From an uncultured Gammaproteobacteria bacterium (GTDB lineage: Bacteria; Patescibacteriota; Patescibacteriia; UBA9570; CAZNEH01): a stretch of DNA of 64,000 bases. The stretch spans positions 9,788 through 73,787 of the forward strand of contig CAZNEH010000001.1 of the NCBI GenBank assembly GCA_964572175.1. The letters run 5' to 3'. The stretch's first letter is position 1. Every line of letters begins with the position of its first letter. Position numbers and translations under genes: made by a program. Below are positions 7,327 through 61,686 of this stretch, piece after piece. The notes below the pieces were generated by a model. That model saw nothing but the letters and a program-made list of their open reading frames with translations, had not been told where the DNA came from and ran no database searches.

Positions 7327-9345
7327 ATGAAACATTTCAAAATATTATTTATCATCACTTGTTTGGCCAGTATTGCGTTTTTTAGCCAGGCAGCCTTAGC
7401 TCAGAATAGAGTTAAGAATTTTCGGGTTACAAATGAAACTTCAGAAACTATTACCCTTAAATGGAAGGCAAATCCTAGAGCTGTAAAATATAAGATTATA
7501 GTAAAAGAACAGGGAGGAGAGTTAGTTAAAAAAGTTTATACTACTAAAAATAGAAAAAAGATAAAGAATTTAAAACCAGATACAGTTTATAAATTTAAAA
7601 TTCGGGCTAAATTCAAAAGAAGATATAGTAAGCATTATAAAATTATTAGAGTTCGAACTGATTCTGCTACGCCAGCTCCGCAGGAACCAGAACCAATTCC
7701 TGAGCCAGAACCTGTTCCAACTCCCGAACCTGAGCCAGAGCCTACTCCCGAGCCTGAACCAACACCAGAGCCAGTTGATAACGACGGCGATGGTTACACT
7801 GAAGAAGAGGACTGTAATGACAATGATGCCACTGTTTATATAAATCAAACATATTACCAAGACTTAGATAGTGATGGGCTAGGTTCAGATACATCTACAT
7901 CAATATGTTCTTCTGTTACTCCAGAAGGTTATGTAACTAATAGTAATGATTCAAACGATAACGACTACGACAACGATGGCGTAGAAACTGGCATTGATTG
8001 TAATGATACCAATTCCGAATTAACCGTACATAATACTTATTATTTAGATAGCGACAACGACAGTTACGGTACTTCTGAAGGAGTTCAATTCTGTGCTAAT
8101 GAACCACCGGCTGGATATGTAACTAATAACACTGATTGTGATGATAGTGATTTAAATGTAAATACAGGCCAAGCATATTACCAAGATTTAGATGGTGATG
8201 GACTAGGTTCAGATATATTTACTTCTGTTTGCTCAAGTACTCCACCGACTGGTTATGTAACAAATAGTAATGATGTAAATGATAACGATTACGACAACGA
8301 CGGCGTAGAAACTGGCACTGATTGTAATGACACAGATGTCGATTTAGCTTACACAAATATTTATTATTTAGACACAGATAGTGATAGTTATGGCGTATCA
8401 ACTGGTACAGAATTATGTGCCACTGAAACACCAGCGGGTTATGTTACTAATGGTGATGACTTAGATGATTATGATCCTGAGATTGGTGATACTGAGCCAG
8501 AACCTGGATTGGATATACCATTTGGTTTTTGGGGCTTGAATGGATACACAGATTCTGATGGACTTGCTTATGTGCAAGATAATTTTGGGGTAAATGTTTA
8601 CCAAGTTTTATCTGATGGGCCAAATTATAATTTAAACACTTTGTTACCTAGGGTTGAAGCCGCGGGAATGAAGGTTAACTTGAATATCACTGGTAATTAT
8701 TATGACTTTAGAGATAGAGATAATAATTTTGATATAAATTTATGGAAACAGTCTTTAGATGATTATTTTAGTGATTCAGATACGGCTGTAGAGACTCAAG
8801 AGTATATTGATAACGGAACGATTGTTGGAATTATGATTTTAGATGATATTTATAATTATAGTTATTCTTATGGAGGAGTTAATCCTACTTCAGCAGAATT
8901 AGAAGAAATGGCTTGTGATTTAAAAGGATATGTTGATGTAACAACTTGGATTAGGGAAGATGTTAGTTATTTAGATCCTTATCAATTTAGCTGTTTAGAT
9001 GCCGCTGGTTTACAATATTCAGCTGTTAAAGGATCAGTGGAAGATTATATTTCAGTACAAGGGCAATTAGCAAGTGATTTAAATCTTGATGTGGTGGCTG
9101 GTTTAAATATTTGTGATGGCGGTGATGGTTCTAGCGGGCAAATTGGTTGGAGAAGTGGTAAGTATACGATGACTCCAGAAGAAATTACTACTTATGGTGA
9201 AGCGATGCTGGGAATGGACAATGTGATTATGTTTTTAATGTGGGAGTATGATGCTAATGAAGTGTGGGCAGATGGGGTAACAGTTGGAGCTGATTATTTT
9301 AATCAAGACGAGTATAAAGAAGCAATATATAATTTAGGTCAATAA
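7327..9345 (+). CDS. large secreted surface protein: signal peptide, Lys-rich FN3-like domain, Pro-Glu-Pro linker, four MopE-like Cys/Asp metal-binding repeats, C-terminal domain
   Basis: The true start is the in-frame ATG at 7327, not 7210 which overlaps the tRNA fragment. A TTGACA-N18-TATATT promoter lies upstream. Signal peptide MKHFKILFIITCLASIAFFSQAALA. Linker PEPEPVPTPEPEPEPTPEPEPTPEP. Repeats of type CNDND..TYYQDLD.DGLGSD. Confidence 0.75.
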   Translation: MKHFKILFIITCLASIAFFSQAALAQNRVKNFRVTNETSETITLKWKANPRAVKYKIIVKEQGGELVKKVYTTKNRKKIKNLKPDTVYKFKIRAKFKRRYSKHYKIIRVRTDSATPAPQEPEPIPEPEPVPTPEPEPEPTPEPEPTPEPVDNDGDGYTEEEDCNDNDATVYINQTYYQDLDSDGLGSDTSTSICSSVTPEGYVTNSNDSNDNDYDNDGVETGIDCNDTNSELTVHNTYYLDSDNDSYGTSEGVQFCANEPPAGYVTNNTDCDDSDLNVNTGQAYYQDLDGDGLGSDIFTSVCSSTPPTGYVTNSNDVNDNDYDNDGVETGTDCNDTDVDLAYTNIYYLDTDSDSYGVSTGTELCATETPAGYVTNGDDLDDYDPEIGDTEPEPGLDIPFGFWGLNGYTDSDGLAYVQDNFGVNVYQVLSDGPNYNLNTLLPRVEAAGMKVNLNITGNYYDFRDRDNNFDINLWKQSLDDYFSDSDTAVETQEYIDNGTIVGIMILDDIYNYSYSYGGVNPTSAELEEMACDLKGYVDVTTWIREDVSYLDPYQFSCLDAAGLQYSAVKGSVEDYISVQGQLASDLNLDVVAGLNICDGGDGSSGQIGWRSGKYTMTPEEITTYGEAMLGMDNVIMFLMWEYDANEVWADGVTVGADYFNQDEYKEAIYNLGQ

Positions 9346-9351
9346 AAAAAA

Positions 9352-9381
9352 CTGCTTTGATAATATCAAGGCAGTTTTTTT
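9352..9381. terminator. bidirectional rho-independent terminator
   Basis: A-run, then hairpin CTGCTTTGATA/TATCAAGGCAG, then T7. Lies between convergent genes. Confidence 0.7.
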
Positions 9382-9396
9382 GTACTTGGAAAAAGG

Positions 9397-9594
9397 TTAG
9401 ACCTTTTGAACGTTTACAGCTCGAGGGCCTTTATCAGAATCCTCAGTTTCGAACTCAACAGTATCACCAGATTTTAGCTCTTCATAAGAAATGCCAACTA
9501 GTGAGTTTGAGTGGAAGAAAAGATCTTTTTCTTCTCCTTCGATAGTGATGAAACCAAATCCCTTGTCTGTAAGGGTTTTAATAACTCCTGTCAT
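9397..9594 (-). CDS. cspA: cold-shock protein (CspA family)
   Basis: KGFGFI RNP1 motif in a 65-aa OB-fold-sized protein. Confidence 0.9.
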   Translation of the reverse strand: MTGVIKTLTDKGFGFITIEGEEKDLFFHSNSLVGISYEELKSGDTVEFETEDSDKGPRAVNVQKV

Positions 9595-20728: not shown

Positions 20729-20803
20729 GGGGGCGTAGCTCCAATTGGCTAGAGCACTGGTCTCCAAAACCAGGTGTTGCAGGTTCGAATCCTGCCGCCC
20801 CCG
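20729..20803 (+). tRNA. tRNA-Trp (anticodon CCA)
   Basis: Acceptor GGGGGCG/CGCCCCC. Anticodon stem-loop CTGGT-CTCCAAA-ACCAG. T-arm GCAGGTTCGAATCCTGC. Confidence 0.85.
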
Positions 20804-20807
20804 CAGT

Positions 20808-24222: not shown

Positions 24223-25860
24223 CTAGTCTATCCTAAGTTTGTGGATATATCGAGAATTTTTAATTTTATTGCCATCTTGCCAAAGTTGGAAGGTTAGGGT
24301 GTTTTTCTTTTTCTTTAAACCAGAAATGTCTTGAAGATTGAAAGTAAAATGTCCGCGAGAAGGGTTGTCGACTTTAGCGTCGTCGAGGTAAGTTAAGAAT
24401 TCTCCATTAACATATAAGGCAGTGTCATCAGCGCGCCAAGTAGAGGTGCCTTTGTTTTTATAGTTTAAAGTTACTTCTGGGTTCCAGCCTTCTTGAATAG
24501 CGGTGGGTAAATTTTGGTTTTTTAAGACCGCGTGGTAAGGACTGTCGACACGATAGGTGATGTAGGTGCGGGACTTGGAAATATACTGATCCTCGTCGCG
24601 GAAAAGACGTAAGGAAATAGTGTGTTCGCCGCGAGTATCAAAATCCCATTTAAAATTAAAAGTATATTCTTCTCCTACAGCGACTTTTTCTTTAATGTAG
24701 ATTTTTTTCTTTTGTAAAGTTTCAGGGTCGCGGACTTTTAAGTAGACTTTGTTTTTTGGAAAGTTTCGTTCTCCAGTATTTTTATATTTAACAGTAATAG
24801 TTTCTTGGGTGTCGATTAAGTAAGCAGTATCGAAAGAGTGTTCTTTTAGCTTGGCCTTACGGGCTTTAGCCACTTGTAAAGAAGAATATTTGTTTTTAGA
24901 TTTACTTATAATAGTATCTAGTTGGTCGTAGATTAGATTGCCCGGACAAGCAGTGTAATCAATATCTTTGTGGCCAATAACCGCATCAACCATAGAGCCT
25001 TGTAAGTTTCGTTGACCGTTTAAAGAAATACTTAGGTCAGAGGCTTTGTTAGAAATTAGATTAGTTAAAGCACTTTGGATTTGAGAAGTGTATTCATCAG
25101 GTTCTGAACAAGCAGTTTCGTCGTAGCAGCCCATAACAGAGATGCCAATGGTGTACTGGTTGTAATCTATATTAGTGTAATCATTATAAGCATGAGCTCC
25201 GATAACTTTGTCGCCTCCGTAGCGGCCTTCGTAGATGTTTCCGCTTTTGTCGATAAGGTAATTATAACCAATGTCGCCCCAGCCTAGGATTTGAGCGTGA
25301 TAATAGTAAATACCACGAACTGTGGCCATTGGGTCGTCTCCGCCATCAGAGCCGGCAGTGTGGTGAATAACAAAAGTTGTAGGCTCGGTATAGCTTGGTT
25401 CCCAAAAACGATAGCTATCATCAGCGCCCCATTCGTCGCGAGTAACTACGTCGATGCTGTATTTGGTTTGGAGTAATTCTAATTCTGTGGAAACAGAGTT
25501 GGTTAGAGATGGCTCTGGAGCTGGACGAGAATCGAAATAAGAAATTTCTAAAGGAACGTTAGTTGAGATATTTAGCTGAGTGCTTATTTCAAAGATAGGA
25601 TCAGAGAAATAATGACCAGGATTACCAGGATAAGCTCCTTCCATTGCCTCTATTAAAGTATTATTTATTGTTATTTTAGGATTTGAGTATTCTTTAGACC
25701 ATTTTACGCCAAAGCCGTTGAATTCAAAGTCTGTAGTGATTTGATAGTCACCTGGGTCTATATTTATTGTGTTAGAAGTAGTTTCGGCTAAAACTGTGGA
25801 AGAAAATAAAAAACTTGCTAAAAGCAAGAATGAAATTATTAAGAAAGTATTTTTTTTCAT
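24223..25860 (-). CDS. secreted N-acetylmuramoyl-L-alanine amidase (Amidase_2/PGRP domain) with C-terminal beta-rich domains
   Basis: Signal peptide. Motifs VIHHTAG, GWGDIGYNYLIDKSGNIYEGR and ACPGN are typical of Amidase_2. Confidence 0.75.
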   Translation of the reverse strand: MKKNTFLIISFLLLASFLFSSTVLAETTSNTINIDPGDYQITTDFEFNGFGVKWSKEYSNPKITINNTLIEAMEGAYPGNPGHYFSDPIFEISTQLNISTNVPLEISYFDSRPAPEPSLTNSVSTELELLQTKYSIDVVTRDEWGADDSYRFWEPSYTEPTTFVIHHTAGSDGGDDPMATVRGIYYYHAQILGWGDIGYNYLIDKSGNIYEGRYGGDKVIGAHAYNDYTNIDYNQYTIGISVMGCYDETACSEPDEYTSQIQSALTNLISNKASDLSISLNGQRNLQGSMVDAVIGHKDIDYTACPGNLIYDQLDTIISKSKNKYSSLQVAKARKAKLKEHSFDTAYLIDTQETITVKYKNTGERNFPKNKVYLKVRDPETLQKKKIYIKEKVAVGEEYTFNFKWDFDTRGEHTISLRLFRDEDQYISKSRTYITYRVDSPYHAVLKNQNLPTAIQEGWNPEVTLNYKNKGTSTWRADDTALYVNGEFLTYLDDAKVDNPSRGHFTFNLQDISGLKKKKNTLTFQLWQDGNKIKNSRYIHKLRID

Positions 25861-28242: not shown

Positions 28243-30378
28243 ATGTGGAGGAAAGCATTGTTTTTAGGCGCTATTCTTAGCGTTGTTTTTGTATTTCCCT
28301 TTGCCATGCAAGCAGCGGTAAGCACATCTGTTGATTTGTATGGAGGGTATGTAGAAGACGTAGTAATTGGGCCTAGTGGGGAGTTTATGGTCTTAACTAT
28401 GTCTCCTAATGGAGCGTGGCTTAGCACAGATGGATCTTCTTATACAGGTCCAGACAGTTCGACTCATGATATGGGTAATTGTACAGCTGGAGGAGCAGAT
28501 GCAAATTATTTTTATGCTGATTGCGGAATCGAGCTTTGGCAAAGTGGTGACGGTCTTATTTGGACAGATACAGGTCTAAGTAATGTTGGGCAATATGTCT
28601 ATGTTGATGACAATAGAATTATTCAGGTAATGAGAGGTAGTGACGAATATATGACTTTGGCGATTTCTGAAGATCAAGGAGCAACCTGGACAGAAGCAAC
28701 TGTTACTGGAGTAGAAAATATAGTAGACATGTCTTTTGCTGGAGATGTTGGCTATATGGTGGCTACTTTAAGTAGTGAATATGAAATTTATAAGACTACT
28801 GACGGAGGAGCTACTTGGTCTGGAACTGGCTATACTATTAGCAGTGGAACAAATTTTAGTATTGCCACTAAAGCATCTGATGATAGCTATGTAGGTTTAA
28901 GAGTTGATGATAGCGGTTATCTTTCTACTGATGGAGGTAGTAGTTTTACTGATTTAGGATTATCTATGGCTGGAGAGATGCAGTTTGTAGGAGATACTTT
29001 ATGGTCTGGTTTAGATTCTACAGATGATGATGGAGCTACTTGGACCCAAAGAGACGGAGGAGATGTGGCTGTAGGTGTAAATGATGTGGCGATTAGCGGA
29101 AGCACAATTTTAGCAGGAACAGGCTTAGGAACAGCCATTTCTACAGATGATGGAACTACTTGGACTGAGGCAACCGATGGTATTGAGGCTTTGGAAGTTG
29201 AGCAAATTGCTCAAAAAACAGGAGATAGAGACAAGGTTATTTTAGCAATTTATGGAGGAGTAGCTAGAACAGAGAATTTTACAGATAGCAATCCAACTTG
29301 GGTCTTAGATACTGAAGTTGGTTCTTCCACAGCTGTATTTTATGGAACAGATATAGCCTTAGTCGGAGCTTCAGAAAATATTTATTATTCTACTGATGAT
29401 GGAGTTACCTGGACTTCTGCAGGGCCAGCCGGAGGAACAGTTACTGACTTTATTAGAAGCGACAGTGTTTATTATGCGGCTTATAATGGAGGGGTTCTTT
29501 CTAGCGCAGATGGAATTACTTGGACAGATTTTGGGTTAAATGGTTATGCAGTTAATGCCATAGCTAAGACTAGTAATGAAAGATTTTATGCTGTAATTGG
29601 AGGAGAGGCAAATACTACTGGAGCTAATTCAGGGATTTATAAATACAATGGTAGTAGCTGGAGTCAAGTATATAGCGGAGGTTTTTATACTGATATAGAA
29701 GTAGTTGATAATATCAAAGGAAGTAATGTGGTTTATGCTGTATCTGCAGTTTCTGGAGATAGTGAATTCGGAGAAGTAATTATGTCTACTGATTATGGAA
29801 CAAGCTGGGATGATATAACAGCTAATGGCTTGGCTACAGATGGATGGTTTCATCAAGTAGTGGCCCAAGGAAACAATAAAGATGTTTTATATGTTTCTAC
29901 AGCTCGACCAGCGGGAACAGGAACTATTTATAAAACTTTAGATGGTGGTGATACTTGGAGTTTATTTCTTACTGGTTTAAGAGATGAAACTTTCCAAGCT
30001 ATGTATTGGGATGATCTAATGGTTGGGTCTAACGCTGGATTAATGAATGTTAATTCTGAAGCAAAGATTGCAGTAACTAGAACTAAGAAAAAAGTTAAAT
30101 CTGGAAATAAGTCTAGATTAAAAGTAACTTTGACTGATAAAGACACTGGAGATGCTTTAGCTAATAAGCCAGTTAAGCTTTATAGAAGATATAAAACTAC
30201 TGGAACTTGGAAATTATTAAAAACAAAGAAAACTGGAGCTAAAGGAAAAACTAATTTTTACAGAAAGATAACTAAGAAGACTTACTTTAAAGTAAGTTGG
30301 AAACCAGTTAAGGCAGCGGTTAAGAGAGCTTATGGCTCTAGTGCTTATAAAAAGTTGACTAATGTGAAGATTAAATAA
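28243..30378 (+). CDS. secreted BNR/Asp-box repeat beta-propeller protein with Lys-rich FN3-like C-terminal domain
   Basis: Signal peptide. Repeated S/T-x-D-x-G-x-T-W motifs (TTDGGATWS, STDDGTTWT, STDDGVTWT, TLDGGDTWS). Basic C-terminal tail. Confidence 0.75.
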   Translation: MWRKALFLGAILSVVFVFPFAMQAAVSTSVDLYGGYVEDVVIGPSGEFMVLTMSPNGAWLSTDGSSYTGPDSSTHDMGNCTAGGADANYFYADCGIELWQSGDGLIWTDTGLSNVGQYVYVDDNRIIQVMRGSDEYMTLAISEDQGATWTEATVTGVENIVDMSFAGDVGYMVATLSSEYEIYKTTDGGATWSGTGYTISSGTNFSIATKASDDSYVGLRVDDSGYLSTDGGSSFTDLGLSMAGEMQFVGDTLWSGLDSTDDDGATWTQRDGGDVAVGVNDVAISGSTILAGTGLGTAISTDDGTTWTEATDGIEALEVEQIAQKTGDRDKVILAIYGGVARTENFTDSNPTWVLDTEVGSSTAVFYGTDIALVGASENIYYSTDDGVTWTSAGPAGGTVTDFIRSDSVYYAAYNGGVLSSADGITWTDFGLNGYAVNAIAKTSNERFYAVIGGEANTTGANSGIYKYNGSSWSQVYSGGFYTDIEVVDNIKGSNVVYAVSAVSGDSEFGEVIMSTDYGTSWDDITANGLATDGWFHQVVAQGNNKDVLYVSTARPAGTGTIYKTLDGGDTWSLFLTGLRDETFQAMYWDDLMVGSNAGLMNVNSEAKIAVTRTKKKVKSGNKSRLKVTLTDKDTGDALANKPVKLYRRYKTTGTWKLLKTKKTGAKGKTNFYRKITKKTYFKVSWKPVKAAVKRAYGSSAYKKLTNVKIK

Positions 30379-34287: not shown

Positions 34288-36777
34288 ATGGATGAAGGAA
34301 TGTTATTTTTTGGCCTAGTTTTAGTGGCTTTTACTTGCTACGCTGGGTTTAAGTTTAAATCTCGAGCCATGCGTTATATTGGCTTGTTTTTTAGTATTGT
34401 TATCGCTTTATTTTTTCTTTTGAATAATATTGCCTTTGCTCAAACTGATTTTGATTTAAGTGAATTAAATCAGTTTACAGGAGAGGATTTAGCTGATTTT
34501 GCAGGAAAAAGCGTTAGTTATGCTGGGGACGTAGATGGTGATGGATATAATGATTTTATAGTTGGGGCTGATCAGAATGATGATGGCGGAAATCAAGCCG
34601 GAGCAGCTTATTTAATTTATGGGCAGTCTGAAGAATATTCTTCATTAACTGATTTATCAACGGTAGCTAAATTTATTGGAGAAGCAGGTGGTGATTATGC
34701 TGGAAAAAGCGTTAGTTATGCTGGGGACGTAGATGGTGATGGATATGATGATTTTTTAATTGGAGCTTATTTAAATGATGATGCCGGAAGTCAGGCCGGA
34801 GCAGCTTACTTAATTTATGGGCAAAGCGATAAGTATACAGGAGATATTGATTTGTCTACTAAGGCACAATTTACCGGAGAGGCAATTGATGATTATGCGG
34901 GGGTAAATGTATCCTCGGCTGGTGATGTAGATGGTGATGGATATGATGACTTTTTAGTTGGGTCTAGTAGAAATGGAGATGGAGCAAGTAAAGCTGGTGC
35001 AGCTTATTTAATTTATGGACAAAGCGCTGATTATACTGGAACAATTAGCTTGTCTACTAGGGCACAATTTACTGGAGAGGCAATTGATGATTATGCTAGT
35101 AAGGTTTCAGCAGCTGGAGACGTAGACAATGATGGGTATGATGATTTTTTAGTTGGATCTAAAGATAATGATGACGGAGGAAGCGGTGCTGGTGCAGCTT
35201 ATTTAATTTATGGACAAAGCGCTGATTATACTGGAACAATTAGCTTGTCTACTAGGGCACAATTTACCGGAGAGGCAGCTGGTGATTCTTCGGGAGTATC
35301 TGTTGCTGCGGCCGGTGATGTTGATAATGACGGATACGATGATATTTTAATTGGAGCATTTTTAAATGACGATGGTGGAAGTCAAGCTGGAGCAGTTTAT
35401 TTAATATATGGCCAAAGCGCCGATTATACTGGAACGTCTAACTTGTCTACTAAAGCACAATTTACCGGAGAGGCAGCTGGTGATGACGCAGGGGTAAGTG
35501 TAGCTTCGGCTGGAGATGTTGATAATGATGGGTACGATGATTTTTTAGTAGGAGCTTATTTAAATGATGCTGGTGGAGATATTGCCGGAGCAGCTTATTT
35601 AATTTATGGGCAAAGCGCGGATTATACAGGAACAGCTAGTTTGTCTACTAAGGATAAGTTTATTGGAGAAGAATCATTGGATTATGCAGGAATAAGCGTA
35701 TCGACAGCTGGTGATATTAATAATGATGGTTATAGTGATATTTTAATAGGGGCTTATCAAAATAGTGAGGGTGGAAGTCTGGCTGGAGCAGCTTATGTGG
35801 GTTATTTGCATATTGATTTAGATGGAGACGGGGTAACAGCTACTACTAGCTTAATTGCCGGAACTGATTGTAATGATAATGACGCAGCAATTTCTGCTAA
35901 TCAAACTTATTATCAGGATTCAGATGGCGATGGTTATGGCTCAGACACTACTACTTCGGTTTGTTCTTTAACAGCGCCGACAGGCTATGTGGCTAACTCA
36001 GATGATGCTAATGACAATGATTATGATAATGATGGCTCAGAAACCGGAACTGATTGCGATGATACTGATGATACTATTAGTGAGAATCAAACTTATTATC
36101 TAGATTCAGATGGAAATGGGTATGGTGATCCAGCAGAGACCACAGAGGTTTGTTCTTATACTGTGCCAGATGGTTATGCGTCTGAGGCTCGACTAGATGT
36201 GCCAGAAAATTTAGTTAATACAGACAGAGGAATTTATAAGGCTACTTTAGGTTGGGATGAAGTTAGTGATGTAGAAAGTTATAATATTAGATATAGAAAG
36301 TCTTCTGAATCAAGCTATACGACTACTACTAGTTCTATAAATAGTGTGGAGTTGGAAGATTTAGAAAATGCGGGAAAATATTATTGGCAAGTACAGGGGG
36401 TATCTGGTAGTTATACTTCAGAATGGACAGATGGAAAAAGATTAGTAACTTATCCAAGAAAGATAACTAAGTCTGAATTTACTTTTCCTAAGTCTGATAG
36501 AAAAGCAAAGAAGCTTAGAATAAAAATAGAGACTATGGCTAAAAGAGTGACTGGTTTTAATATTTTAGTTTATAAAAAGAAGAGTGGAAAGTGGAGTAAA
36601 ATAGAAACAGTTAAAAGATCTAATGATAGTTCTAAGAATTATGTTTATAAATATATTACTGGGTTAAAGCCAGATACTAAATATAAGTTTGAAGTAAAAG
36701 CTAGGAGAACTATTGGTTCAACTAAATACTTAAGTCAGAACGTAGCCACCAGATATATTACGACTAAATCGCTATGA
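34288..36777 (+). CDS. secreted FG-GAP (integrin-alpha-like) repeat beta-propeller protein with MopE-like Cys repeats and Lys-rich FN3-like C-terminal domain
   Basis: Seven or more repeats of AGDVDGDGYDDFL(I/V)GA...AGAAYLIYGQS. CNDND/CDDTD Cys motifs. Basic C-terminus. Confidence 0.8.
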   Translation: MDEGMLFFGLVLVAFTCYAGFKFKSRAMRYIGLFFSIVIALFFLLNNIAFAQTDFDLSELNQFTGEDLADFAGKSVSYAGDVDGDGYNDFIVGADQNDDGGNQAGAAYLIYGQSEEYSSLTDLSTVAKFIGEAGGDYAGKSVSYAGDVDGDGYDDFLIGAYLNDDAGSQAGAAYLIYGQSDKYTGDIDLSTKAQFTGEAIDDYAGVNVSSAGDVDGDGYDDFLVGSSRNGDGASKAGAAYLIYGQSADYTGTISLSTRAQFTGEAIDDYASKVSAAGDVDNDGYDDFLVGSKDNDDGGSGAGAAYLIYGQSADYTGTISLSTRAQFTGEAAGDSSGVSVAAAGDVDNDGYDDILIGAFLNDDGGSQAGAVYLIYGQSADYTGTSNLSTKAQFTGEAAGDDAGVSVASAGDVDNDGYDDFLVGAYLNDAGGDIAGAAYLIYGQSADYTGTASLSTKDKFIGEESLDYAGISVSTAGDINNDGYSDILIGAYQNSEGGSLAGAAYVGYLHIDLDGDGVTATTSLIAGTDCNDNDAAISANQTYYQDSDGDGYGSDTTTSVCSLTAPTGYVANSDDANDNDYDNDGSETGTDCDDTDDTISENQTYYLDSDGNGYGDPAETTEVCSYTVPDGYASEARLDVPENLVNTDRGIYKATLGWDEVSDVESYNIRYRKSSESSYTTTTSSINSVELEDLENAGKYYWQVQGVSGSYTSEWTDGKRLVTYPRKITKSEFTFPKSDRKAKKLRIKIETMAKRVTGFNILVYKKKSGKWSKIETVKRSNDSSKNYVYKYITGLKPDTKYKFEVKARRTIGSTKYLSQNVATRYITTKSL

Positions 36778-44799: not shown

Positions 44800-44927
44800 A
44801 CAGCGACGACGAGGTAAGTGTGGGCCGTGCCCGCCATAGTCCTGATTCATATCGGGACGACGGCGGGTCTATTTTTTTGACTAAAAAAACAGGGGATGTT
44901 AGAGTATTATTATCAAGGGGGAAAGAC

Positions 44928-45143: not shown

Positions 45144-45251
45144 CCCGCTACAGTCTTCGGACCACGGCGGGTTCTTTTTTTATTTGGGTTGACTCGGGAG
45201 GGTTTTGGTGCTAAGGTAAGGGCGCCTAATTCACAAGGGAGGGCATGTAAG

Positions 45252-45554: not shown

Positions 45555-45592
45555 GCAGAGCAGAACTACACGAATCACACGAGGAGGTGTGC

Positions 45593-45934: not shown

Positions 45935-45940
45935 TTCCAT

Positions 45941-45976
45941 GACCTACACCGGGGGGATGTAGGTCGTATTTTTTTA
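45941..45976 (+). terminator. rho-independent terminator (GACCTA family)
   Basis: GACCTACA-ccgggggga-TGTAGGTC plus T-run. Confidence 0.7.
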
Positions 45977-46036
45977 TTTTGACTAATTTGGGGTGGGGTG
46001 TTAAGGTTAAATTGAAAATAGTAACTTAGAACACTT

Positions 46037-46714
46037 ATGAAAAAATTATCCCTCGCGATCTTGGTATTAGCGTTTTTTGCGTTGACTATGCCAAGTAGCT
46101 CGTCCGCAGCTGTTAGAACTGTGACGACAATTAAAAAAGCTTCAGGTTTAAAAGCTGATATCTCCGCAGACTCTGATTCCAAACTTAGATGGACCAAGGT
46201 TTCCAAGACCAAGTATTATAAAGTTCAGCTTAAAAAGAAAAACGGTAAAAAAGTTAAGACTTGGACAAAGCGGAAAAAGAATTGGGTAAAGATTACGGAT
46301 AATGTAAAAGAGGGGAAGAAGTATAAGTATAGAGTGAGGGGTTGTAAAAAGAATAAATGTGGGAAGTGGTCGAAATATAAATATTTTAATACTAATGATT
46401 TAGTTGAAGAAACTGAAGAAGAGGTAGTTGTTAGTGAAGAGAGTAATGAACAATCAGAAGAGGTGGTTACTACGCCAGTAGTTGAGCCTACTCCAGATCC
46501 GACTCCTGATCCTGAGCCAACGCCTGAGCCGGAACCCACTCCTGAGCCAGAGCCAGTTAGCTATGAGTGTAGCGCAAATATTTATAATTGTAGTGACTTT
46601 AATTATCAGTCAGAGGCACAAGATGCTTATGAGCAGTGTTTAGCTGAAGTGGGGGATGATATTCATGATTTGGATAGGGATGGGAATGGGTTGGCTTGCG
46701 AGAGTTTAAAATAG
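46037..46714 (+). CDS. secreted protein: signal peptide, Lys-rich FN3-like domain, PEPTPEP linker, C-terminal Excalibur calcium-binding domain
   Basis: Driven by a promoter TTGACT-aatttggggtggggtgt-TAAGGT identical in style to the GC-rich cassettes, but the gene itself is low-GC. C-terminal CSDF...DRDGNGLACE matches the Excalibur motif. Confidence 0.7.
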   Translation: MKKLSLAILVLAFFALTMPSSSSAAVRTVTTIKKASGLKADISADSDSKLRWTKVSKTKYYKVQLKKKNGKKVKTWTKRKKNWVKITDNVKEGKKYKYRVRGCKKNKCGKWSKYKYFNTNDLVEETEEEVVVSEESNEQSEEVVTTPVVEPTPDPTPDPEPTPEPEPTPEPEPVSYECSANIYNCSDFNYQSEAQDAYEQCLAEVGDDIHDLDRDGNGLACESLK

Positions 46715-48155: not shown

Positions 48156-48965
48156 ATGAAAAAAGAAAAAATGAAAAGAAATAATAAGATAGTATTATTT
48201 CAAAGTAAAAAAATAAGGCGGGTTTGGCATAAAGAAGAATGGTATTATTCGGTTATTGATATCATTGATATTTTAACTGATAGCGCAAACTCAAGGGATT
48301 ATTGGTATCAAATGAAGAAAAGAGTTGGTGATGAAGAAAAAATTGAACTATCGACAATTTGTCGACAGTTGAAATTAAAGGCACTAGATGGAAAGATGAG
48401 ACTTACAGATTGTGCTAGCACAGAAGGAATTTTTAGGATTATTCAGTCAATTCCATCTCCTAAGGTCGAGCCATTTAAGAGATGGTTAGCTAAAGTTGGA
48501 AAAGAAAGATTAGACGAGATAGAGAATCCAGAACTAGCTCAAGAAAGAATGAAGAGAATATATGAACAAAAAGGATATTCTAAAGAATGGATTGATAAAC
48601 GATTAAGGGGAATTGCTATTAGACAGAATTTAACAGATGAGTGGAGAGAAAGAGGGGTTAAGAGACCTAATAATTACGCTATTTTAACAGCTGAGATTTC
48701 TAAGGCGACTTTTGGATTAACTCCAAGTGAATATAGAAGCGTAAAAGGATTAGATAAAAAGAATTTACGTGATTACATGACAGATCTTGAGTTAATATTT
48801 ACTATGTTAGGAGAAAGAGTGACGACGGAAATTTCTAGCCAAGAAAAACCAAAAAATATGCCGTCGCATAAAAAAGTTGCTAAGCGCGGAGGTGGCGTAG
48901 CTGGTAAGGCAAGAAAAGATACGGAAAAAGAATTAGGGCGAAGTGTTATTTCTGGAAATTTATAA
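48156..48965 (+). CDS. dinD: DinD-like DNA-damage-inducible protein (Bro-N/DinD family)
   Basis: N-terminal block KIRRVWHKEEWYYSVIDIIDILTDS and C-terminal block LTAEISKATFGLTPSEYRSVKGLDKKNLRDYMTDLELIFTMLGE align with E. coli DinD blocks recalled from memory. Confidence 0.55.
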   Translation: MKKEKMKRNNKIVLFQSKKIRRVWHKEEWYYSVIDIIDILTDSANSRDYWYQMKKRVGDEEKIELSTICRQLKLKALDGKMRLTDCASTEGIFRIIQSIPSPKVEPFKRWLAKVGKERLDEIENPELAQERMKRIYEQKGYSKEWIDKRLRGIAIRQNLTDEWRERGVKRPNNYAILTAEISKATFGLTPSEYRSVKGLDKKNLRDYMTDLELIFTMLGERVTTEISSQEKPKNMPSHKKVAKRGGGVAGKARKDTEKELGRSVISGNL

Positions 48966-49955
48966 TTCCAACTCATCATCCTGAAGCCTGTCATAAGCAC
49001 AACCAGCAGCAACGGTCATAGAATCTTCATCATAAATAGAGTTATCACCCTTGTAATCTTCCCAGTCTTCCATGTGCTGGAGGATTTTATCTTCGTATTC
49101 GTCTTTTAAGTCAGGGTCAAAATAGTTAAAGGGACATTCATACCCCTCACTAGAGGCGACCATTAACTCCACACGCCCAAGGCTAGAGGTCCAGGTGCCG
49201 GCGCGGCCGATGAAGTCGCCAGCTTTAACTTCGTCGCCTTCAGAAACTTGAAGACTTTTAACATGGTCTATGTAAACTTGAACATCATTGCCCTCATATT
49301 TATTAATAATCAACTCATAATCATTAGTTGAGTTTTGAAAGACAGCGCTTTGAATAGTTCCGTTTACAGGGGAGTAAACTCTAGCATTGGGGCCGGTGCG
49401 ATATTCAAAAGTAGGCAACATTTTATATCCTCCGCTGCCAGTGGGGACAACAGCGCCGAATTCGTAAAAAAGTTTGTCTTCGTTATAACCAGAGGCAAAG
49501 TCAAAGGCTCCGGCGCGGTCGGTTGTTGAGCTATATCGTTTAAAATTAACAATTAAATTTTTTACTACTGGGGGAGGGGTGTCAGTAGTGGCTCGTAGTT
49601 TTTCACTCCAAGGGCCACAATTAAGCTTAGTCCGGCAGGCGCGGGCTTTAAAATAATAAGTGTATCCAGGAGATAGGTTTTTTAAAGTTTTTTTATAATT
49701 ATTGTCTTTAGTCCGGTTTCTAGTTACCCATTTTAATTTTCCTGACCTTCTTTCACGATAAGTTTTAACTTGATAAAAGTTGACCCCACTGTCTGTTATT
49801 TTTTTCCAGCGAACAGTAATTTTTTTGTTATAAGTTTGTAAAACCCTAAATTGATCAATAGTAGGGATGCTATAATCAGGAACAGCCAGAGCTGGTTTTA
49901 AATTAACACACAAAAAAGACACTATAATTATAAGCGAAGAAATTATAATTTTCAT
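48960..49955 (-). CDS. secreted M23-family peptidase with N-terminal Lys-rich FN3-like domain
   Basis: Signal peptide. VYSPVNGTI...YIDHVKSLQVSEGDEVKAGDFIGRAG matches the LytM/M23 pattern. Confidence 0.7.
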   Translation of the reverse strand: MKIIISSLIIIVSFLCVNLKPALAVPDYSIPTIDQFRVLQTYNKKITVRWKKITDSGVNFYQVKTYRERRSGKLKWVTRNRTKDNNYKKTLKNLSPGYTYYFKARACRTKLNCGPWSEKLRATTDTPPPVVKNLIVNFKRYSSTTDRAGAFDFASGYNEDKLFYEFGAVVPTGSGGYKMLPTFEYRTGPNARVYSPVNGTIQSAVFQNSTNDYELIINKYEGNDVQVYIDHVKSLQVSEGDEVKAGDFIGRAGTWTSSLGRVELMVASSEGYECPFNYFDPDLKDEYEDKILQHMEDWEDYKGDNSIYDEDSMTVAAGCAYDRLQDDELEL

Positions 49956-56988: not shown

Positions 56989-58119
56989 TTAGTAAACTCT
57001 AAGGCGGACGCGGTTAGAGATTGTTTCTCCACCGCTATTTTTTACTTTAAAGTAGTAAATTCCTTTTTTATTTGGCTTTACTTTACGATAATAATAGCCG
57101 TTATCGTTTAAAGTTTCTAAATCAGCTTTTTGAATTAAGTTATATCCTTTAACACCTAGTTTTTTACGATAAAGCTTTAATTCTTCCCCGGCTTCTTGAT
57201 TTTTATACCATCCGTATAATTTAGCGGTTTGGCCTTTTAGTTGAGCCTTGCGCTTTAGGGCGGCGCTCATCTCAGAAGCTTGTTTAGCAAAAGCAGTTTT
57301 AGAAACAGTGGTTGAGGACATAGTGCTGCTAGATACAGAAGTAGCGGTGCTTCCAGAAAAAGTTACATTAATATCAAAGATTATTCCACCGTCATCTGTA
57401 ATAGTGTTGTTGATATTGGCTTGATAATCATCAATGTAAAGAGCTAGATCTTCAGCAGTGATGGTTTCACCACTCATGGTGCTCATTAGATCAAGCATAG
57501 TAGAAGGCATGTAAATACCGAAGTATCCAGTTTCTCCAGCAGGTCCATTTAAAGTTAGGCCAAATCCCATTTCTTCTGGTCCAGAGGGAGGAAAGATTTC
57601 CCAATCATTAATATCACAGTAGATGTAGCCGCCAGCCATAGATGCTGGAGGACCTACTGTTTCTGGGCTTTCTAGGGTTGGGTCTGCAACTGGGTCTATG
57701 AATACAAAGGCAGATTCGCTGCTTTCAGTGGTTTGTCCAGGAATCATGAATTGATCTGCTTCCCAAACAACAGTGGCTTGGGAGGTTGTAGAATCCCAGG
57801 TGTAAGAACTTATTTTCCCTCCGCTAATTAAAAGCATTGGGGCATAAGTGTAATCAGAAACAGTAAATACGCCGGTCATCACAGTGCCGACTAATGCATC
57901 GGCATAGCTTACTCCAAAGGTGTCTTCGGTAATTCCAGCTTCAGGCGGCATAGATGGGGTGTCAGCCACGGTTAGGGCGTCGGCGACTCCATCAGAGTCT
58001 AGGTCAGCAGAGCCAGTATAGGTGATACTGTCTACACTAACTTCATAGGCATAAGCGCCCATGGGAGCTAATAATAAAACAAAAGCTCCGATAGCCATAA
58101 TAAAGAGAGCTTTTTTCAT
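56989..58119 (-). CDS. secreted surface protein with Lys-rich FN3-like C-terminal domain (paralogue of the 60604..61686 product)
   Basis: Signal peptide. Shared blocks WEIFPPSGPEEMGFGLTLNGPAGETGYFGIYMPS and IFDINVTFSGSTA. Confidence 0.65.
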   Translation of the reverse strand: MKKALFIMAIGAFVLLLAPMGAYAYEVSVDSITYTGSADLDSDGVADALTVADTPSMPPEAGITEDTFGVSYADALVGTVMTGVFTVSDYTYAPMLLISGGKISSYTWDSTTSQATVVWEADQFMIPGQTTESSESAFVFIDPVADPTLESPETVGPPASMAGGYIYCDINDWEIFPPSGPEEMGFGLTLNGPAGETGYFGIYMPSTMLDLMSTMSGETITAEDLALYIDDYQANINNTITDDGGIIFDINVTFSGSTATSVSSSTMSSTTVSKTAFAKQASEMSAALKRKAQLKGQTAKLYGWYKNQEAGEELKLYRKKLGVKGYNLIQKADLETLNDNGYYYRKVKPNKKGIYYFKVKNSGGETISNRVRLRVY

Positions 58120-59230: not shown

Positions 59231-59234
59231 AATT

Positions 59235-60560: not shown

Positions 60561-60565
60561 AACAA

Positions 60566-60597
60566 AAGACCCTGATCTATTCAGGGTCTTTTTTGTT
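60566..60597. terminator. bidirectional rho-independent terminator
   Basis: AAGACCCTG-atctatt-CAGGGTCTT flanked by an A-run and a T-run, between convergent genes. Confidence 0.75.
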
Positions 60598-60603
60598 TGA
60601 GTA

Positions 60604-61686
60604 TTATTTAGTAACTCTAACTTTTTTAACGTTAGTGTACTTCTTTTTCTTTGGCCAATAAACTTTATAAGAAGCAGTTTTCTTTTTCATGGCTGGCCTG
60701 AATTTGAAGTAGCCATTATTGTTTTTTAGAGTAGAAACGTCTTGTTTTACCCATTTTTTCTTACCCAAGGCTTTTCGCCATAAAGACACTTTTTGGTTTT
60801 TCTTACCGTTTTTAATCCATCCAAAACAAGTGAATTTATCACCCTTAGCTTTGCGATAGCTTTTACAAGCAAAGGTACGAGCAGCTTGTTCGCGAACTTT
60901 TACTTGTTTAGTGATTTGTTCTTCTTCTCCGCCAGTACGGCTAGCTAAAGAAGAAATTTTAGTAGTGTTTTCGGAAAAAGTCACTTGGATATCTACTAAA
61001 GCTCCGCCAGTTGTTTCAGTAATAGATAAAGAAGCTTGGTCATCATCTAAGTAAACGGCTAAGTCTGTCCAGTCTAATTCTTCGTCAGCCATTTCACTGA
61101 GCATGTCTTTAGTTCCATCAGACATAAACATTTGAAAAAATCCAGATTCTCCAGTAGTTCCTGAAAGTTGGTATCCGAAGTAAGGAGTGCCTCCATTTTC
61201 ATCAGAGGGAGGAATAAGATTCCAGTTCATTAAATTAGTAGCCATCCAAGAGCCATTCATATCTGTTGGGGGTCCATCTTCTTCTTCAGTTTCAGCAGCC
61301 CAGACAATGGCAATGCCAAAGGGGCTATAAGGGGTAAAATCTCCAGAGCCTTCAATGTACCCAGTATGCTCGGTGCTAACAGTAATAGTTTCGGCAGTAG
61401 AATCGTAAGACCAGTCTTCCATAGTTCCGCCAGTGATTACTACCATGACTGGCTCCTCTGAAACAGAGTAGACTGCAGTGTAGACTTGACCAATGGTGCC
61501 GCTAAATACGTCTAAAGATACTCCTTCAGGAGCATCGTCGTCTTGCCCGGCTAAATCGTTGATGTTAGTAGCATCTGGGGTGATGCTGACTAGCTCTGCG
61601 GTTTCATCTCCAAAAGCTAGGGCTGATCCAGGAAGGATCAAAAAAGCCATCATTAAAACCAATAATGGCAAAATAAACTTTTTCAT
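60604..61686 (-). CDS. secreted surface protein with Lys-rich FN3-like C-terminal domain (paralogue of the 56989..58119 product)
   Basis: Signal peptide. Shared blocks WNLIPPSDENGGTPYFGYQLSGTTGESGFFQMFMS and LVDIQVTFSENTT. Confidence 0.65.
   Translation of the reverse strand: MKKFILPLLVLMMAFLILPGSALAFGDETAELVSITPDATNINDLAGQDDDAPEGVSLDVFSGTIGQVYTAVYSVSEEPVMVVITGGTMEDWSYDSTAETITVSTEHTGYIEGSGDFTPYSPFGIAIVWAAETEEEDGPPTDMNGSWMATNLMNWNLIPPSDENGGTPYFGYQLSGTTGESGFFQMFMSDGTKDMLSEMADEELDWTDLAVYLDDDQASLSITETTGGALVDIQVTFSENTTKISSLASRTGGEEEQITKQVKVREQAARTFACKSYRKAKGDKFTCFGWIKNGKKNQKVSLWRKALGKKKWVKQDVSTLKNNNGYFKFRPAMKKKTASYKVYWPKKKKYTNVKKVRVTK

What the first reader, a model, noticed from the sequence alone, without database searches (positions are those of the whole stretch)
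7327..61686. A shared Lys-rich FN3-like beta-sandwich module on at least seven secreted proteins
An ~85-residue module appears in several proteins with the pattern (K/R)-x-T-x-x-W-x-K-V-x4-YYKVQ/YKI...K-x-(K/R)-x3-K-x3-K-N-L-K-P-x-T-x-Y-K-F-K-(V/I)-R-A, with pI obviously very high. It is N-terminal in 7327..9345, 46037..46714 and 48960..49955(-). It is C-terminal in 28243..30378, 34288..36777, 56989..58119(-) and 60604..61686(-). The catalytic or binding parts of these proteins are unrelated (MopE repeats, BNR propeller, FG-GAP propeller, M23 peptidase, Excalibur). This is the signature of a lineage-specific cell-surface anchoring or sorting domain, possibly binding an anionic wall polymer or host surface.
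Basis: seen in the sequence. Interest (0 to 1): 0.55.

Follow-up and report, generated by a model that had tools for sequence, protein, structure and literature searches.

The report
Supercharged basic end-domains on acidic exoproteins
Seven secreted, very acidic proteins of an uncultured Patescibacteria (CPR) bacterium each carry one extremely lysine-rich beta-sandwich domain at one end. These domains belong to two unrelated sequence families, and they most likely hold the proteins on the negatively charged cell envelope by charge, taking the place of a lipid or transmembrane anchor.

Summary
All seven ORFs exist at the stated coordinates. Each has a signal peptide and one 85-114-residue module at the stated end. 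The modules have net charge +16 to +30 (pI 10.1-10.9). The rest of each mature protein has pI 4.1-4.2 (net -21 to -106).

They are not one module. A, C, D and E carry FN3 domains (Pfam PF00041). B, F and G carry a different Ig-like sandwich with no Pfam or NCBIfam model. What the seven share is charge and terminal position, not sequence.

That property is conserved and depends on position:
- Orthologues at 33-57% identity keep the basic module and the acidic passenger.
- In multi-copy relatives only the last copy is basic.
- Relatives with a C-terminal transmembrane helix have a neutral last copy.
- Distant M23 homologues have a lipobox where protein E has the FN3.
- A related genome has five such proteins within 21 kb.

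Best reading (confidence about 0.5): a fold-independent electrostatic anchor to a polyanion of the cell envelope. Lactobacillus S-layer wall-binding regions work the same way. Binding to extracellular DNA or to the host surface remains possible.

It is a new variant of a known principle, and of moderate interest.

The parts
7327..9345 (+). Gene A (672 aa from the signal-peptide-consistent start; the longest ORF starts at 7210). Order: signal peptide, basic FN3, Pro/Glu linker, Asp-rich Cys-containing repeats, C-terminal acidic domain.
7405..7659 (+). A module: basic FN3, aa 27-111, net +23, pI 10.9 (Pfam fn3 34.6 bits)
7660..7776 (+). A linker: (Pro-Glu/Thr)n spacer, aa 112-150, between the basic FN3 and the acidic passenger
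   Evidence: sequence; low-complexity hits to TonB/ClfB/InlK spacers
28243..30378 (+). Gene B (711 aa): signal peptide, BNR/Sortilin-Vps10 propeller, C-terminal basic class-2 Ig-like module
30034..30375 (+). B module: class-2 Ig-like sandwich, aa 598-711, net +30, pI 10.7. No Pfam hit. Broadened family HMM E = 7e-11.
34288..36777 (+). Gene C (829 aa; the true start is probably Met28). Order: signal peptide, 7 FG-GAP repeats, Asp-rich repeats, acidic FN3, terminal basic FN3.
36199..36429 (+). C internal FN3, aa 638-714; a 90-residue segment around it (aa 633-722) has pI 4.5. This is the built-in control: a non-terminal copy of the same fold is not basic.
36502..36774 (+). C module: terminal basic FN3, aa 739-829, net +20, pI 10.4
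46037..46714 (+). Gene D (225 aa): signal peptide, basic FN3, acidic Glu/Pro/Thr linker, Excalibur-like Ca-binding motif (marginal)
46133..46396 (+). D module: basic FN3, aa 33-120, net +27, pI 10.4 (Pfam fn3 23.2 bits, just under the 25-bit cut-off). It shares the C..KCG.WS loop with E.
46397..46558 (+). D linker: aa 121-174, acidic then (Pro-Thr/Glu/Asp)n
48960..49955 (-). Gene E (331 aa): signal peptide, basic FN3, short Pro linker, M23 peptidase
49581..49862 (-). E module: basic FN3, aa 32-125, net +18, pI 10.4. Conserved and even more basic in orthologues P0008-P0011: N-terminal part +23 to +30. In P0012 the same part is +7 because it includes an acidic linker.
56989..58119 (-). Gene F (376 aa): signal peptide, acidic region homologous to the two N-terminal beta-sandwich domains predicted for paralogue G (F itself was not modelled), Ser/Thr linker, C-terminal basic class-2 module. 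Paralogue of G.
56992..57315 (-). F module: class-2 Ig-like sandwich, aa 269-376, net +16, pI 10.1
60604..61686 (-). Gene G (360 aa): signal peptide, two acidic beta-sandwich domains, disordered linker (pLDDT < 50 at 241-254), C-terminal basic class-2 module
60607..60924 (-). [not shown]
24226..24843 (-). Possible weaker eighth case: the C-terminal CARDB-like half (aa 340-545, pI 9.2, net +6) of the secreted Amidase_2 protein 24223-25860(-). Its N-terminal part has pI 4.5.

Best explanation
These are charge-polarised exoproteins. Each is exported by Sec. The functional passenger is strongly acidic (pI about 4.1). One terminal beta-sandwich domain has nearly all its exposed positions occupied by Lys or Arg (net +16 to +30 in about 100 residues).

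The domain is either an FN3 or an unrelated Ig-like domain of the Big_3_5/transthyretin-like kind.

The most likely role of the basic domain is a non-covalent electrostatic anchor. It would stick to a polyanion of the cell's own envelope: anionic membrane lipids, or a teichoic-acid-like or other anionic wall polymer. It does this in place of a lipid, transmembrane or sortase anchor. The acidic passenger, often behind a Pro/Glu/Thr spacer, would be repelled outward.

Shown here: the anatomy, two independent fold families, conservation of the charge polarity, its restriction to terminal copies, and its mutual exclusivity with other anchors.

Inferred: that the module binds anything, and what it binds.
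For: 1. Extreme, localised charge contrast in all seven proteins. An internal FN3 in C is acidic.
2. Two sequence-unrelated families show the same property. This points to selection on charge rather than ancestry.
3. Conservation. G-family orthologues at 33-79% identity have C-termini of +11 to +30 and remainders of -26 to -42. E orthologues at 48-57% identity have N-terminal parts of +23 to +30 (+7 in the 41% orthologue, whose part includes an acidic linker), and M23 domains of -22 to -32 in all five.
4. In the exhaustive search, 70 of 82 single-copy family members have the domain within 5 residues of the C-terminus; median domain charge over all 82 is +19 per 100 aa, against -8.5 for the rest.
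5. In multi-copy proteins the terminal copies have a median of +11.2 per 100 aa and the internal copies +2.5 (Mann-Whitney p = 1.5e-8).
6. Anchor substitution:
   - 6 of 8 family members with a 34-42-aa tail after the last copy have a C-terminal TM helix and a near-neutral last copy. None of 104 with a terminal basic copy has one.
   - Distant M23 homologues P0013, P0014 and P0019 have lipobox-like N-termini exactly where E has the FN3.
   - In the window, the two lipoproteins and the three proteins scored as N-terminally TM-anchored lack such a module.
7. None of the seven has LPXTG or a known wall-binding Pfam domain.
8. Multi-copy relatives are peptidoglycan hydrolases (GH25, Amidase_2, NlpC/P60). 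C-terminal repeats on such enzymes usually target the wall (the last point is general knowledge).
9. It recurs in relatives: five such proteins in 21 kb of a related genome, up to +36 in 87 aa and +51 in 129 aa, and one in a Kerfeldbacteria MAG.
10. Precedent: Lactobacillus S-layer proteins have high-pI wall-binding regions, N- or C-terminal, that bind teichoic acids electrostatically (PMC3666127).
Against: - There is no experimental or direct computational evidence of binding.
- The ligand is unknown. No teichoic-acid, sortase or S-layer genes are seen in the window, and only 64 kb of the genome is available.
- The family profile used for the terminal-versus-internal test was itself built from basic sequences. 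Detection is therefore biased, though not in a way that creates the positional pattern.
- The TM-exclusivity test rests on only 8 tailed proteins.
- A very basic domain right after a signal peptide should hinder Sec export. Export is assumed, not shown.
- Some secreted proteins in the window have no basic module and no other recognised anchor: the 912-aa FG-GAP protein and the 441-aa hyper-acidic protein.
- In 1.0 Mb of OTCase-centred loci from 65 relatives, only one further case was found. The trait is patchy.
Confidence: 0.5

Rival explanations
1. The basic modules bind extracellular DNA. The proteins would then decorate or capture eDNA (matrix building, or DNA scavenging by a nucleotide-auxotrophic CPR cell) rather than attach to the envelope.
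For: [quoted passage not shown] Its LPXTG-less homologues are electropositive and its LPXTG-bearing ones are not (bioRxiv 10.64898/2026.05.25.726231). That is the same anchor-or-charge logic as. Net charges of +16 to +30 would bind any polyanion.
Against: - No known DNA-binding fold or motif was found.
- The modules are folded sandwiches with charge spread over the whole domain, not a tail or a cradle.
- The substitution is for membrane anchors (lipobox, TM), which points to the cell surface.
- An M23 peptidoglycan hydrolase and the GH25/amidase relatives need the wall, not DNA.
Confidence: 0.12
2. The basic modules are the adhesive tips. They would bind the anionic surface of a host or partner cell (LPS, teichoic acids, capsule) and mediate the epibiotic attachment typical of Patescibacteria.
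For: FN3 and integrin-like (FG-GAP) domains on large surface proteins of Patescibacteria are routinely proposed as host-attachment factors (PMC13059738). The organism is a Patescibacterium. Passengers include FG-GAP, BNR and Ca-binding repeats.
Against: - If the basic module binds the host, the proteins have no recognisable attachment to their own cell: no lipobox, TM or LPXTG.
- Anchor-substitution evidence places the module in the role of the self-anchor.
- Non-specific charge binding would give little host specificity.
Confidence: 0.15
3. There is no binding function. The modules would be generic spacer domains whose charge is a by-product. Possible causes are intramolecular charge compensation that keeps very acidic proteins soluble or foldable, or Lys enrichment from AT-rich codon bias.
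For: - The genome is AT-rich (GC 0.30-0.38), and module DNA is 26-36% GC with Lys far exceeding Arg.
- There is no conserved motif beyond fold-defining residues.
- FN3/Ig domains are common spacers.
Against: - The same AT-rich genes encode passengers of pI 4.1, and one of them (C) also encodes an acidic FN3.
- Charges do not balance: A is -106 against +23, C is -95 against +20.
- Strict terminal position, terminal-copy specificity and exclusivity with TM or lipobox anchors are not expected from drift or solubility compensation.
Confidence: 0.15
4. The modules are sorting or secretion signals recognised by a dedicated export or processing machine. The analogy is the C-terminal beta-sandwich domain of type IX secretion substrates.
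For: B, C, F and G have a roughly 100-residue beta-sandwich at the extreme C-terminus, like T9SS CTDs.
Against: - A, D and E, and an N-terminal class-2 module in L067, carry it right after a cleavable signal peptide.
- There is no Pfam or NCBIfam T9SS CTD hit.
- Two unrelated families would need one receptor.
- Patescibacteria are considered to lack an outer membrane (general knowledge; not tested here).
Confidence: 0.03

Closest known systems
Cell-wall-binding regions of Lactobacillus S-layer proteins (SlpA/CbsA type; SLAP-domain proteins)
   Same: A high-pI region at either the N- or the C-terminus of a secreted protein. It attaches non-covalently and electrostatically to anionic wall polymers, the (lipo)teichoic acids. 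There is no sortase signal (PMC3666127; PMC11181022 listed).
   Different: - Different folds and no sequence relation: no SLAP or other wall-binding Pfam hit.
- Here the passengers are enzymes, propellers and Ca-binding repeats of pI about 4, not a self-assembling lattice.
- The phylum is Patescibacteria.
- The ligand is unknown.
GW modules of Listeria InlB/Ami and similar cationic non-covalent anchors of Firmicutes (own knowledge, not tested here)
   Same: Basic C-terminal modules hold an otherwise anchorless surface protein or autolysin on lipoteichoic acid by charge and are released by polyanions.
   Different: GW modules are SH3-like repeats, used in tandem. Here a single FN3 or Ig-like sandwich is used, and it can be N-terminal. 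No GW Pfam match.
Lysine-rich C-terminal tail of the streptococcal protease ScpH (eDNA-scaffolded filament)
   Same: Loss of a covalent or membrane anchor goes together with gain of an electropositive terminus that binds a polyanion. FN3 and Ig domains are present in the same protein (bioRxiv 10.64898/2026.05.25.726231).
   Different: In ScpH the basic element is a FIVAR domain plus a 14-residue tail, and the ligand is dsDNA. Here whole beta-sandwich domains are supercharged, they can sit at either end, and the ligand is untested.
Ordinary bacterial FN3 (PF00041) and Big_3_5/CarboxypepD_reg/transthyretin-like Ig domains
   Different: Typical copies are near-neutral spacers or binding modules. 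Internal copies in the same families are about +2 per 100 aa, or acidic. The terminal copies here carry +16 to +36.
Type IX secretion C-terminal domain (CTD)
   Same: A beta-sandwich of about 80-100 residues at the extreme C-terminus of diverse secreted proteins.
   Different: No sequence match. The modules here also occur N-terminally, are defined by charge, and belong to a phylum not known to have an outer membrane or T9SS.

Membership tests
Fibronectin type III domain (Pfam PF00041) | Whole-protein score at or above Pfam's gathering cut-off (25 bits) over the module | tested here: met
   A 34.6 bits (aa 29-100), C 45.3 bits (two stretches, plus an FN3_DSCAM hit at 755-821), E 26.2 bits (aa 35-121). 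D is 23.2 bits, just below the cut-off, but aligns with E's FN3 (BLASTP 2.8e-5).
Fibronectin type III domain (Pfam PF00041) | The same criterion applied to the B, F and G C-terminal modules | tested here: not met
   No fn3 hit at E <= 0.1. An FN3 HMM built from A, C, D and E finds none of them. hhalign of the F/G profile against the FN3 profile gives probability 0.2%.
Big_3_5 / CarboxypepD_reg / transthyretin-like bacterial Ig-like domains | Significant match to one of these Pfam models, or a clear fold match | tested here: inconclusive
   - B, F and G themselves give no hit.
- Multi-copy relatives found with the F/G profile: nearly all hits are below the cut-offs (Big_3_5 23.5, CarboxypepD_reg 24-31, Big_1 27 bits); Big_3_5 passes its cut-off in P0055 (50.3 vs 35.5) and PITM1-3 in P0046 (43.4 vs 27.7).
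- The model pLDDT is only 74.
   There are two groups: A/C/D/E and B/F/G. No cross-group signal was found.
Known non-covalent wall-binding modules (SLH, LysM, SH3b, GW, CW_binding_1/2, WxL, SLAP) | Pfam match to any of these | tested here: not met
   None at E <= 0.1, except a noise-level Choline_bind_1 hit in C (E = 0.083, 13.7 bits against 20.5) that lies outside the module.
Sortase substrates | C-terminal LPXTG motif, hydrophobic stretch and basic tail | tested here: not met
   No LP.TG anywhere in the seven proteins. The C-termini end in the folded module.
Type IX secretion CTD | Match to the Por_Secre_tail/TIGR04183 models; exclusively C-terminal position | tested here: not met
   No Pfam or NCBIfam hit. 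Three of the seven modules are N-terminal.
Electrostatic wall-anchor regions (Lactobacillus SLP type): functional class, not a sequence family | A terminal region of high pI on a secreted protein that lacks other anchors | tested here: met
Electrostatic wall-anchor regions (Lactobacillus SLP type): functional class, not a sequence family | Salt- or LiCl-extractable binding to teichoic acids or another anionic envelope polymer | not testable with these tools
   This needs binding assays. No wall-polymer genes are visible in the 64-kb window.

The most novel reading that the evidence does not exclude
A clade of Patescibacteria may use a general, fold-independent 'charge tag' to display its surface proteome. 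Any terminal beta-sandwich (FN3, Big/transthyretin-like Ig, and at least one further type) would be supercharged to +20 to +50. It would then replace lipid, TM and sortase anchors by binding a still-unidentified polyanionic envelope component. That component might be unusual, for example a hyper-acidic protein such as the 441-aa Asp-rich repeat protein encoded between F and G. If so, the cell-retained exoproteome of these uncultured episymbionts could be predicted from sequence by charge polarity alone.
Probability: 0.3. Interest if true: 0.65.

Novelty: new variant of a known kind. Interest (0 to 1): 0.5.

Why it matters
Patescibacteria (CPR) make up a large share of bacterial diversity. They live attached to other cells and depend on surface proteins, yet how most of their exoproteins stay on the cell is unknown.

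A simple rule that can be computed from sequence would do three things:
- It would help sort CPR secretomes into retained and released proteins. The rule is: acidic passenger, plus one supercharged terminal beta-sandwich, and no other anchor.
- It would point to an anionic envelope component that has not yet been characterised.
- It would give a portable display tag for synthetic use.

It also shows convergent supercharging of two unrelated domain families, which is an example of selection on a bulk physical property rather than on sequence.

The principle itself, a cationic non-covalent anchor, is already established in Firmicutes. The advance is therefore one of scope and implementation, not of kind.

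Tried and rejected
1. A profile of the four basic FN3 modules against the 5.8-billion-protein word-indexed database returned nothing, not even the query proteins. The profile was too weak and the word index too strict. One of three capped searches was lost.
2. A metagenome-contig scan with the E-type FN3 alignment matched 244 pattern stretches, none confirmed.
3. PDB sequence search with the class-2 profile gave only chance-level antibody VH matches, E > 0.1.
4. Foldseek of the full G model against the PDB gave only generic tandem Ig/FN3 matches with poor global TM scores. This shows three beads on a string and no enzyme fold.
5. The idea that the high-GC 42-46 kb stretch was an rRNA or a large ncRNA is rejected. 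There is no Rfam hit, and reading the sequence shows small genes with promoters, RBS and terminators.
6. Recent module shuffling is rejected. There is no DNA similarity between module-coding segments beyond A-rich runs.
7. Taxonomic assignment of class-2 relatives through cluster names failed, because the sources give no organism names.
8. An exact look-up of P0012 and of one cassette protein found no record.
9. Literature searches found no description of this charge polarity in Patescibacteria within the held library. Absence there is not proof of novelty.

Full report
WHAT IS IN THE WINDOW

The window comes from an uncultured Patescibacteria (CPR) bacterium.
- GC content is 0.30-0.38.
- It encodes DUF5671.
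- Its ornithine carbamoyltransferase is at most 72-73% identical to those of Patescibacteria MAGs of the Magasanikbacteria/Kerfeldbacteria neighbourhood in GTDB representative genomes.
- The same contig is present in a Logan assembly of SRR8146440 and in NCBI as a 92-kb contig.

All begin with a signal-peptide-like hydrophobic N-terminus. A, D and E have AxA-type cleavage sites (ALA|QN, SSA|AV, ALA|VP) directly ahead of the module.

THE OBSERVATION, CHECKED

Each protein has one module of 85-114 residues at the stated end, with an extreme positive charge.

| Protein | Module (aa) | Net charge | pI |
|---|---|---|---|
| A | 27-111 | +23 | 10.9 |
| B | 598-711 | +30 | 10.7 |
| C | 739-829 | +20 | 10.4 |
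| D | 33-120 | +27 | 10.4 |
| E | 32-125 | +18 | 10.4 |
| F | 269-376 | +16 | 10.1 |
| G | 255-360 | +29 | 10.6 |

- Lys far exceeds Arg in the modules.
- The mature remainder of every protein is strongly acidic, net -21 to -106 and pI 4.1-4.2.
- This is not genome composition. The window proteome has 8.6% K, 3.7% R, 7.3% D and 7.5% E. The mean 90-residue window carries -3.4, and only 2.6% of such windows reach +14.
- Apart from the seven, the windows that reach +14 lie in cytoplasmic proteins (integrases, kinase, transketolase) and in spurious ORFs of a high-GC stretch.
- Protein C provides an internal control. The FN3 at aa 638-714, just upstream of the terminal basic FN3, is acidic (pI 4.5).

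ONE MODULE OR SEVERAL?

Class 1 is FN3.
- Pfam fn3 matches A (34.6 bits), C (45.3 bits, two stretches) and E (26.2 bits).
- D scores 23.2 bits, just under the 25-bit cut-off.
- D and E share a Cys-x5-Cys-Gly-x-Trp-Ser loop.

Class 2 is a different Ig-like sandwich.
- The C-termini of B, F and G get no Pfam or NCBIfam hit.
- An HMM of the four FN3 modules does not find them.
- F_C and G_C are clearly homologous (BLASTP 3e-8).
- A profile of the F/G family compared with the FN3 profile gives hhalign probability 0.2%.
- B_C is only weakly similar to the narrow F/G profile (hhalign E = 0.0012; hmmsearch E = 0.06).
- B_C is recovered at E = 7e-11 by a profile broadened with 160 family domains.

So 'FN3-like beta-sandwich' is acceptable as a description of shape for all seven. 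There it is the generic FN3 strand pattern with Lys or Arg at the outward-facing positions; the five-sequence alignment has just two invariant columns.

The module-coding DNA segments share nothing beyond A-rich runs, so these are not recent duplications.

IS THE CHARGE MEANINGFUL? FOUR LINES OF EVIDENCE

1. Conservation in orthologues.
- G-family proteins at 33-79% identity all keep a basic C-terminus (+11 to +30 in the last 95 residues) and an acidic remainder (-26 to -42, pI 4.1).
- E orthologues at 48-57% identity keep an N-terminal part of +23 to +30. The 41% orthologue P0012 has +7, because its part includes an acidic linker. All five keep an acidic M23 domain, -22 to -32.

2. Position dependence.
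- An exhaustive HMMER search with the class-2 profile found 282 cluster representatives.
- 82 of the best 150 are single-copy, mostly G-like proteins of about 350 aa.
- In 70 of those 82 the domain ends within 5 residues of the C-terminus. Its median charge over all 82 is +19 per 100 aa, against -8.5 for the rest of the protein.
- 65 are multi-copy proteins. Their non-repeat parts include GH25 lysozyme, Amidase_2 and NlpC/P60.
- In these, terminal copies have a median of +11.2 per 100 aa and internal copies +2.5 (Mann-Whitney p = 1.5e-8). Across all proteins the medians are +16.2 and +1.9 (p = 3e-28).
- Typical charge strings along a protein are [+2, +2, +3, +16], [-4, 0, +18] and [-8, +12].

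3. Anchor substitution.
- Eight family members have a tail of 20-60 residues after the last copy. Six of them have a C-terminal transmembrane helix with a basic stop-transfer tail, and their last copy is near neutral (-3 to +3 per 100 aa).
- None of the 104 proteins whose domain is the extreme C-terminus has such a helix.
- More distant M23 homologues of E lack the FN3. They start with lipobox-like sequences (…LSGC, …MASC, …ASGC) just ahead of the conserved PPVLKNL start of the catalytic domain.
- Inside the window, the two lipoproteins (61750-62589, 62594-63484) have no basic module. Neither do the three proteins scored as N-terminally membrane-anchored (33251-34264, 3128-3685, 50517-51191; the last has three predicted hydrophobic segments).
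- None of the seven has LPXTG or any known wall-binding domain.

4. Recurrence in relatives.
- A 21-kb locus around the E orthologue of a related genome (L067; GCA_964344485.1, contig CAYFNF010000002.1) encodes five such proteins:
  - the E orthologue;
  - a 406-aa FN3/Calx-beta/PBP protein whose N-terminal FN3 carries +36 in 87 residues (pI 11.4), against -48 for the rest;
  - a 475-aa protein with an N-terminal class-2 module (+25), which shows that class 2 can also be N-terminal;
  - a 1272-aa protein of net -122 that ends in two FN3 domains of +14 and +27, after a -23 segment;
  - a 929-aa Big_5 protein whose last 129 residues carry +51 (pI 11.8) and match neither profile, so probably a third type.
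- A Kerfeldbacteria MAG has a 577-aa acidic protein ending in a +24 FN3 (L052).
- The trait is patchy. That L052 protein was the only further case in 1.0 Mb of OTCase-centred loci from 65 relatives.

MECHANISM

The best-supported reading is a fold-independent electrostatic anchor. After Sec export, the supercharged terminal sandwich would adhere to a polyanion of the producer's own envelope. Candidates are anionic phospholipids and a teichoic-acid-like or otherwise anionic wall polymer. The acidic passenger would be repelled outward.

In A and D a 39-54-residue acidic and Pro-rich (Pro/Glu/Thr) spacer lies between anchor and passenger. It resembles the rigid spacers of TonB and of Gram-positive wall-spanning regions, but only at the level of low-complexity similarity.

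The anatomy, the conservation, the positional rule and the anchor exclusivity are shown. Binding, and the identity of the ligand, are inferred.

I put this at about 0.5. The rivals are as follows.
- Binding to extracellular DNA (0.12). There is a direct precedent in the lysine-rich tail of the LPXTG-less streptococcal protease ScpH.
- Adhesion to an anionic host surface (0.15). FN3 and integrin-like domains are commonly proposed for this in Patescibacteria. It would leave the proteins with no attachment to their own cell.
- No binding role, with the charge as a by-product of solubility compensation or AT bias (0.15). The unbalanced charges, the acidic sister FN3 and the positional rules argue against it.
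- A sorting signal of the T9SS-CTD kind (0.03). The N-terminal occurrences and the lack of any model match argue against it.

COMPARISON WITH WHAT IS KNOWN

It works like the cationic non-covalent anchors of Firmicutes. The closest is the wall-binding region of Lactobacillus S-layer proteins. That region may be N- or C-terminal, always has a high predicted pI, and binds teichoic acids electrostatically (PMC3666127). GW modules of Listeria are a further analogue (own knowledge).

It is not a member of any of those families; every sequence-based membership test failed. As domains, class 1 modules are ordinary FN3 members. Class 2 modules belong to an unmodelled branch of the Big_3_5/CarboxypepD_reg/transthyretin-like Ig superfamily; that membership is inconclusive.

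Three things appear to be new:
- the implementation, in which whole FN3 or Ig sandwiches are supercharged;
- the convergence of at least two families on the same solution;
- the phylum.

I found no description of this in the held literature. That is weak evidence of novelty.

VERDICT

- The finding is real, but it is two or more things rather than one.
The claim of one shared lineage-specific module is not supported.
- Novelty: a new variant of a known kind.
- Interest: 0.5. A specialist would find the terminal-copy rule and the anchor exclusivity neat and testable, but not shocking.

SIDE OBSERVATIONS

Positions 42.2-46.0 kb, inside the finding's span, looked like non-coding high-GC DNA.
- It is not an RNA gene.
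- It is an array of nine small ORFan genes with GC3 of 0.54-0.80 (seven of the eight measured at 0.66 or above), against 0.20-0.43 for the neighbouring genes.
- Most of the genes have their own promoter-like box, and several are followed by a hairpin terminator. A 40-nt promoter-like repeat occurs six times; five copies lie within the array, and the sixth is the one upstream of gene D. A terminator hairpin occurs three times.
- There are no Pfam, PHROG, viral-contig or related-locus matches.

Further items are listed separately.

Noticed in passing
window 42200-46000 (+): An array of nine small genes (53-156 aa) with coding GC of 0.49-0.61 and GC3 of 0.54-0.80 (seven of the eight measured at 0.66 or above). 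The neighbouring genes have GC3 of 0.20-0.43. Several are zinc-ribbon-like, with CxxC..CxxC motifs, and there are two paralogue pairs. Most genes have their own promoter-like box and AGGGAGG RBS, and several are followed by a hairpin + T-run terminator. A 40-nt promoter-like repeat (TTGAC-N17-TAAGGT) occurs six times, and a terminator hairpin occurs three times. It is not an RNA gene (no Rfam hit). There are no Pfam, PHROG, viral-contig or related-locus matches. High-GC ORFan cassettes under native-looking AT-rich signals are unexplained.
   Followed up: partly
window 45974-46013, upstream of gene D (46037): Gene D (basic FN3 + Excalibur-like) is preceded by the sixth copy of the same 40-nt promoter-like repeat that serves the high-GC cassette array. 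D may therefore be expressed as the last member of that array.
   Followed up: partly
window 181-7055: A probable integrated element next to tRNA-Thr (181-256). It has two tyrosine-recombinase genes (294-1196, 4838-5743), a DUF4238 protein, a Schlafen AlbA_2 protein and several ORFans. GC is 0.30, the lowest in the window. Gene A starts just downstream.
   Followed up: no
window 59235-60560 (+): A secreted 441-aa hyper-acidic protein (pI 4.1; 40-residue windows down to -22). It is made of Asp-rich DxDxDG-type repeats, has no Pfam or NCBIfam match, and is encoded between F and G. It could be a Ca-binding matrix or a polyanionic partner for the basic modules. This is speculation.
   Followed up: partly
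L067 7112-9901 (-), related genome GCA_964344485.1: A 929-aa Big_5 protein of net -52 whose last 129 residues carry +51 (pI 11.8). These residues match neither the FN3 profile nor the class-2 profile, so this is probably a third type of basic terminal module. A Sulfotransfer_2 gene and a GT2 gene lie next to this cluster.
   Followed up: partly
window 14653-19740 (+): A 1695-aa cytoplasmic signalling protein that fuses a Ser/Thr kinase, an AAA_16 ATPase, GAF, PAS, HisKA and HATPase_c. This is unusually large and complex for a reduced CPR genome.
   Followed up: no
window 24223-25860 (-): The secreted Amidase_2 + CARDB protein shows the same charge polarity in weaker form. The N-terminal catalytic part has pI 4.5 and the C-terminal 206 residues have pI 9.2.
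   Followed up: partly
window 20729-20804 / 20745-21416; 34288; 7210: Start-codon issues. The listed TTG start of ORF 20745 lies inside tRNA-Trp. Gene C probably starts at Met28, at the second hydrophobic segment.
   Followed up: no
L023/L067 and many other loci: Several assemblies whose record titles say 'uncultured Gammaproteobacteria', 'Methanosarcinales' or 'Woesearchaeota' carry OTCase genes 62-71% identical to this Patescibacteria window, and one (L067) has a Patescibacteria-like E-orthologue neighbourhood. These are likely mislabelled bins.
   Followed up: no
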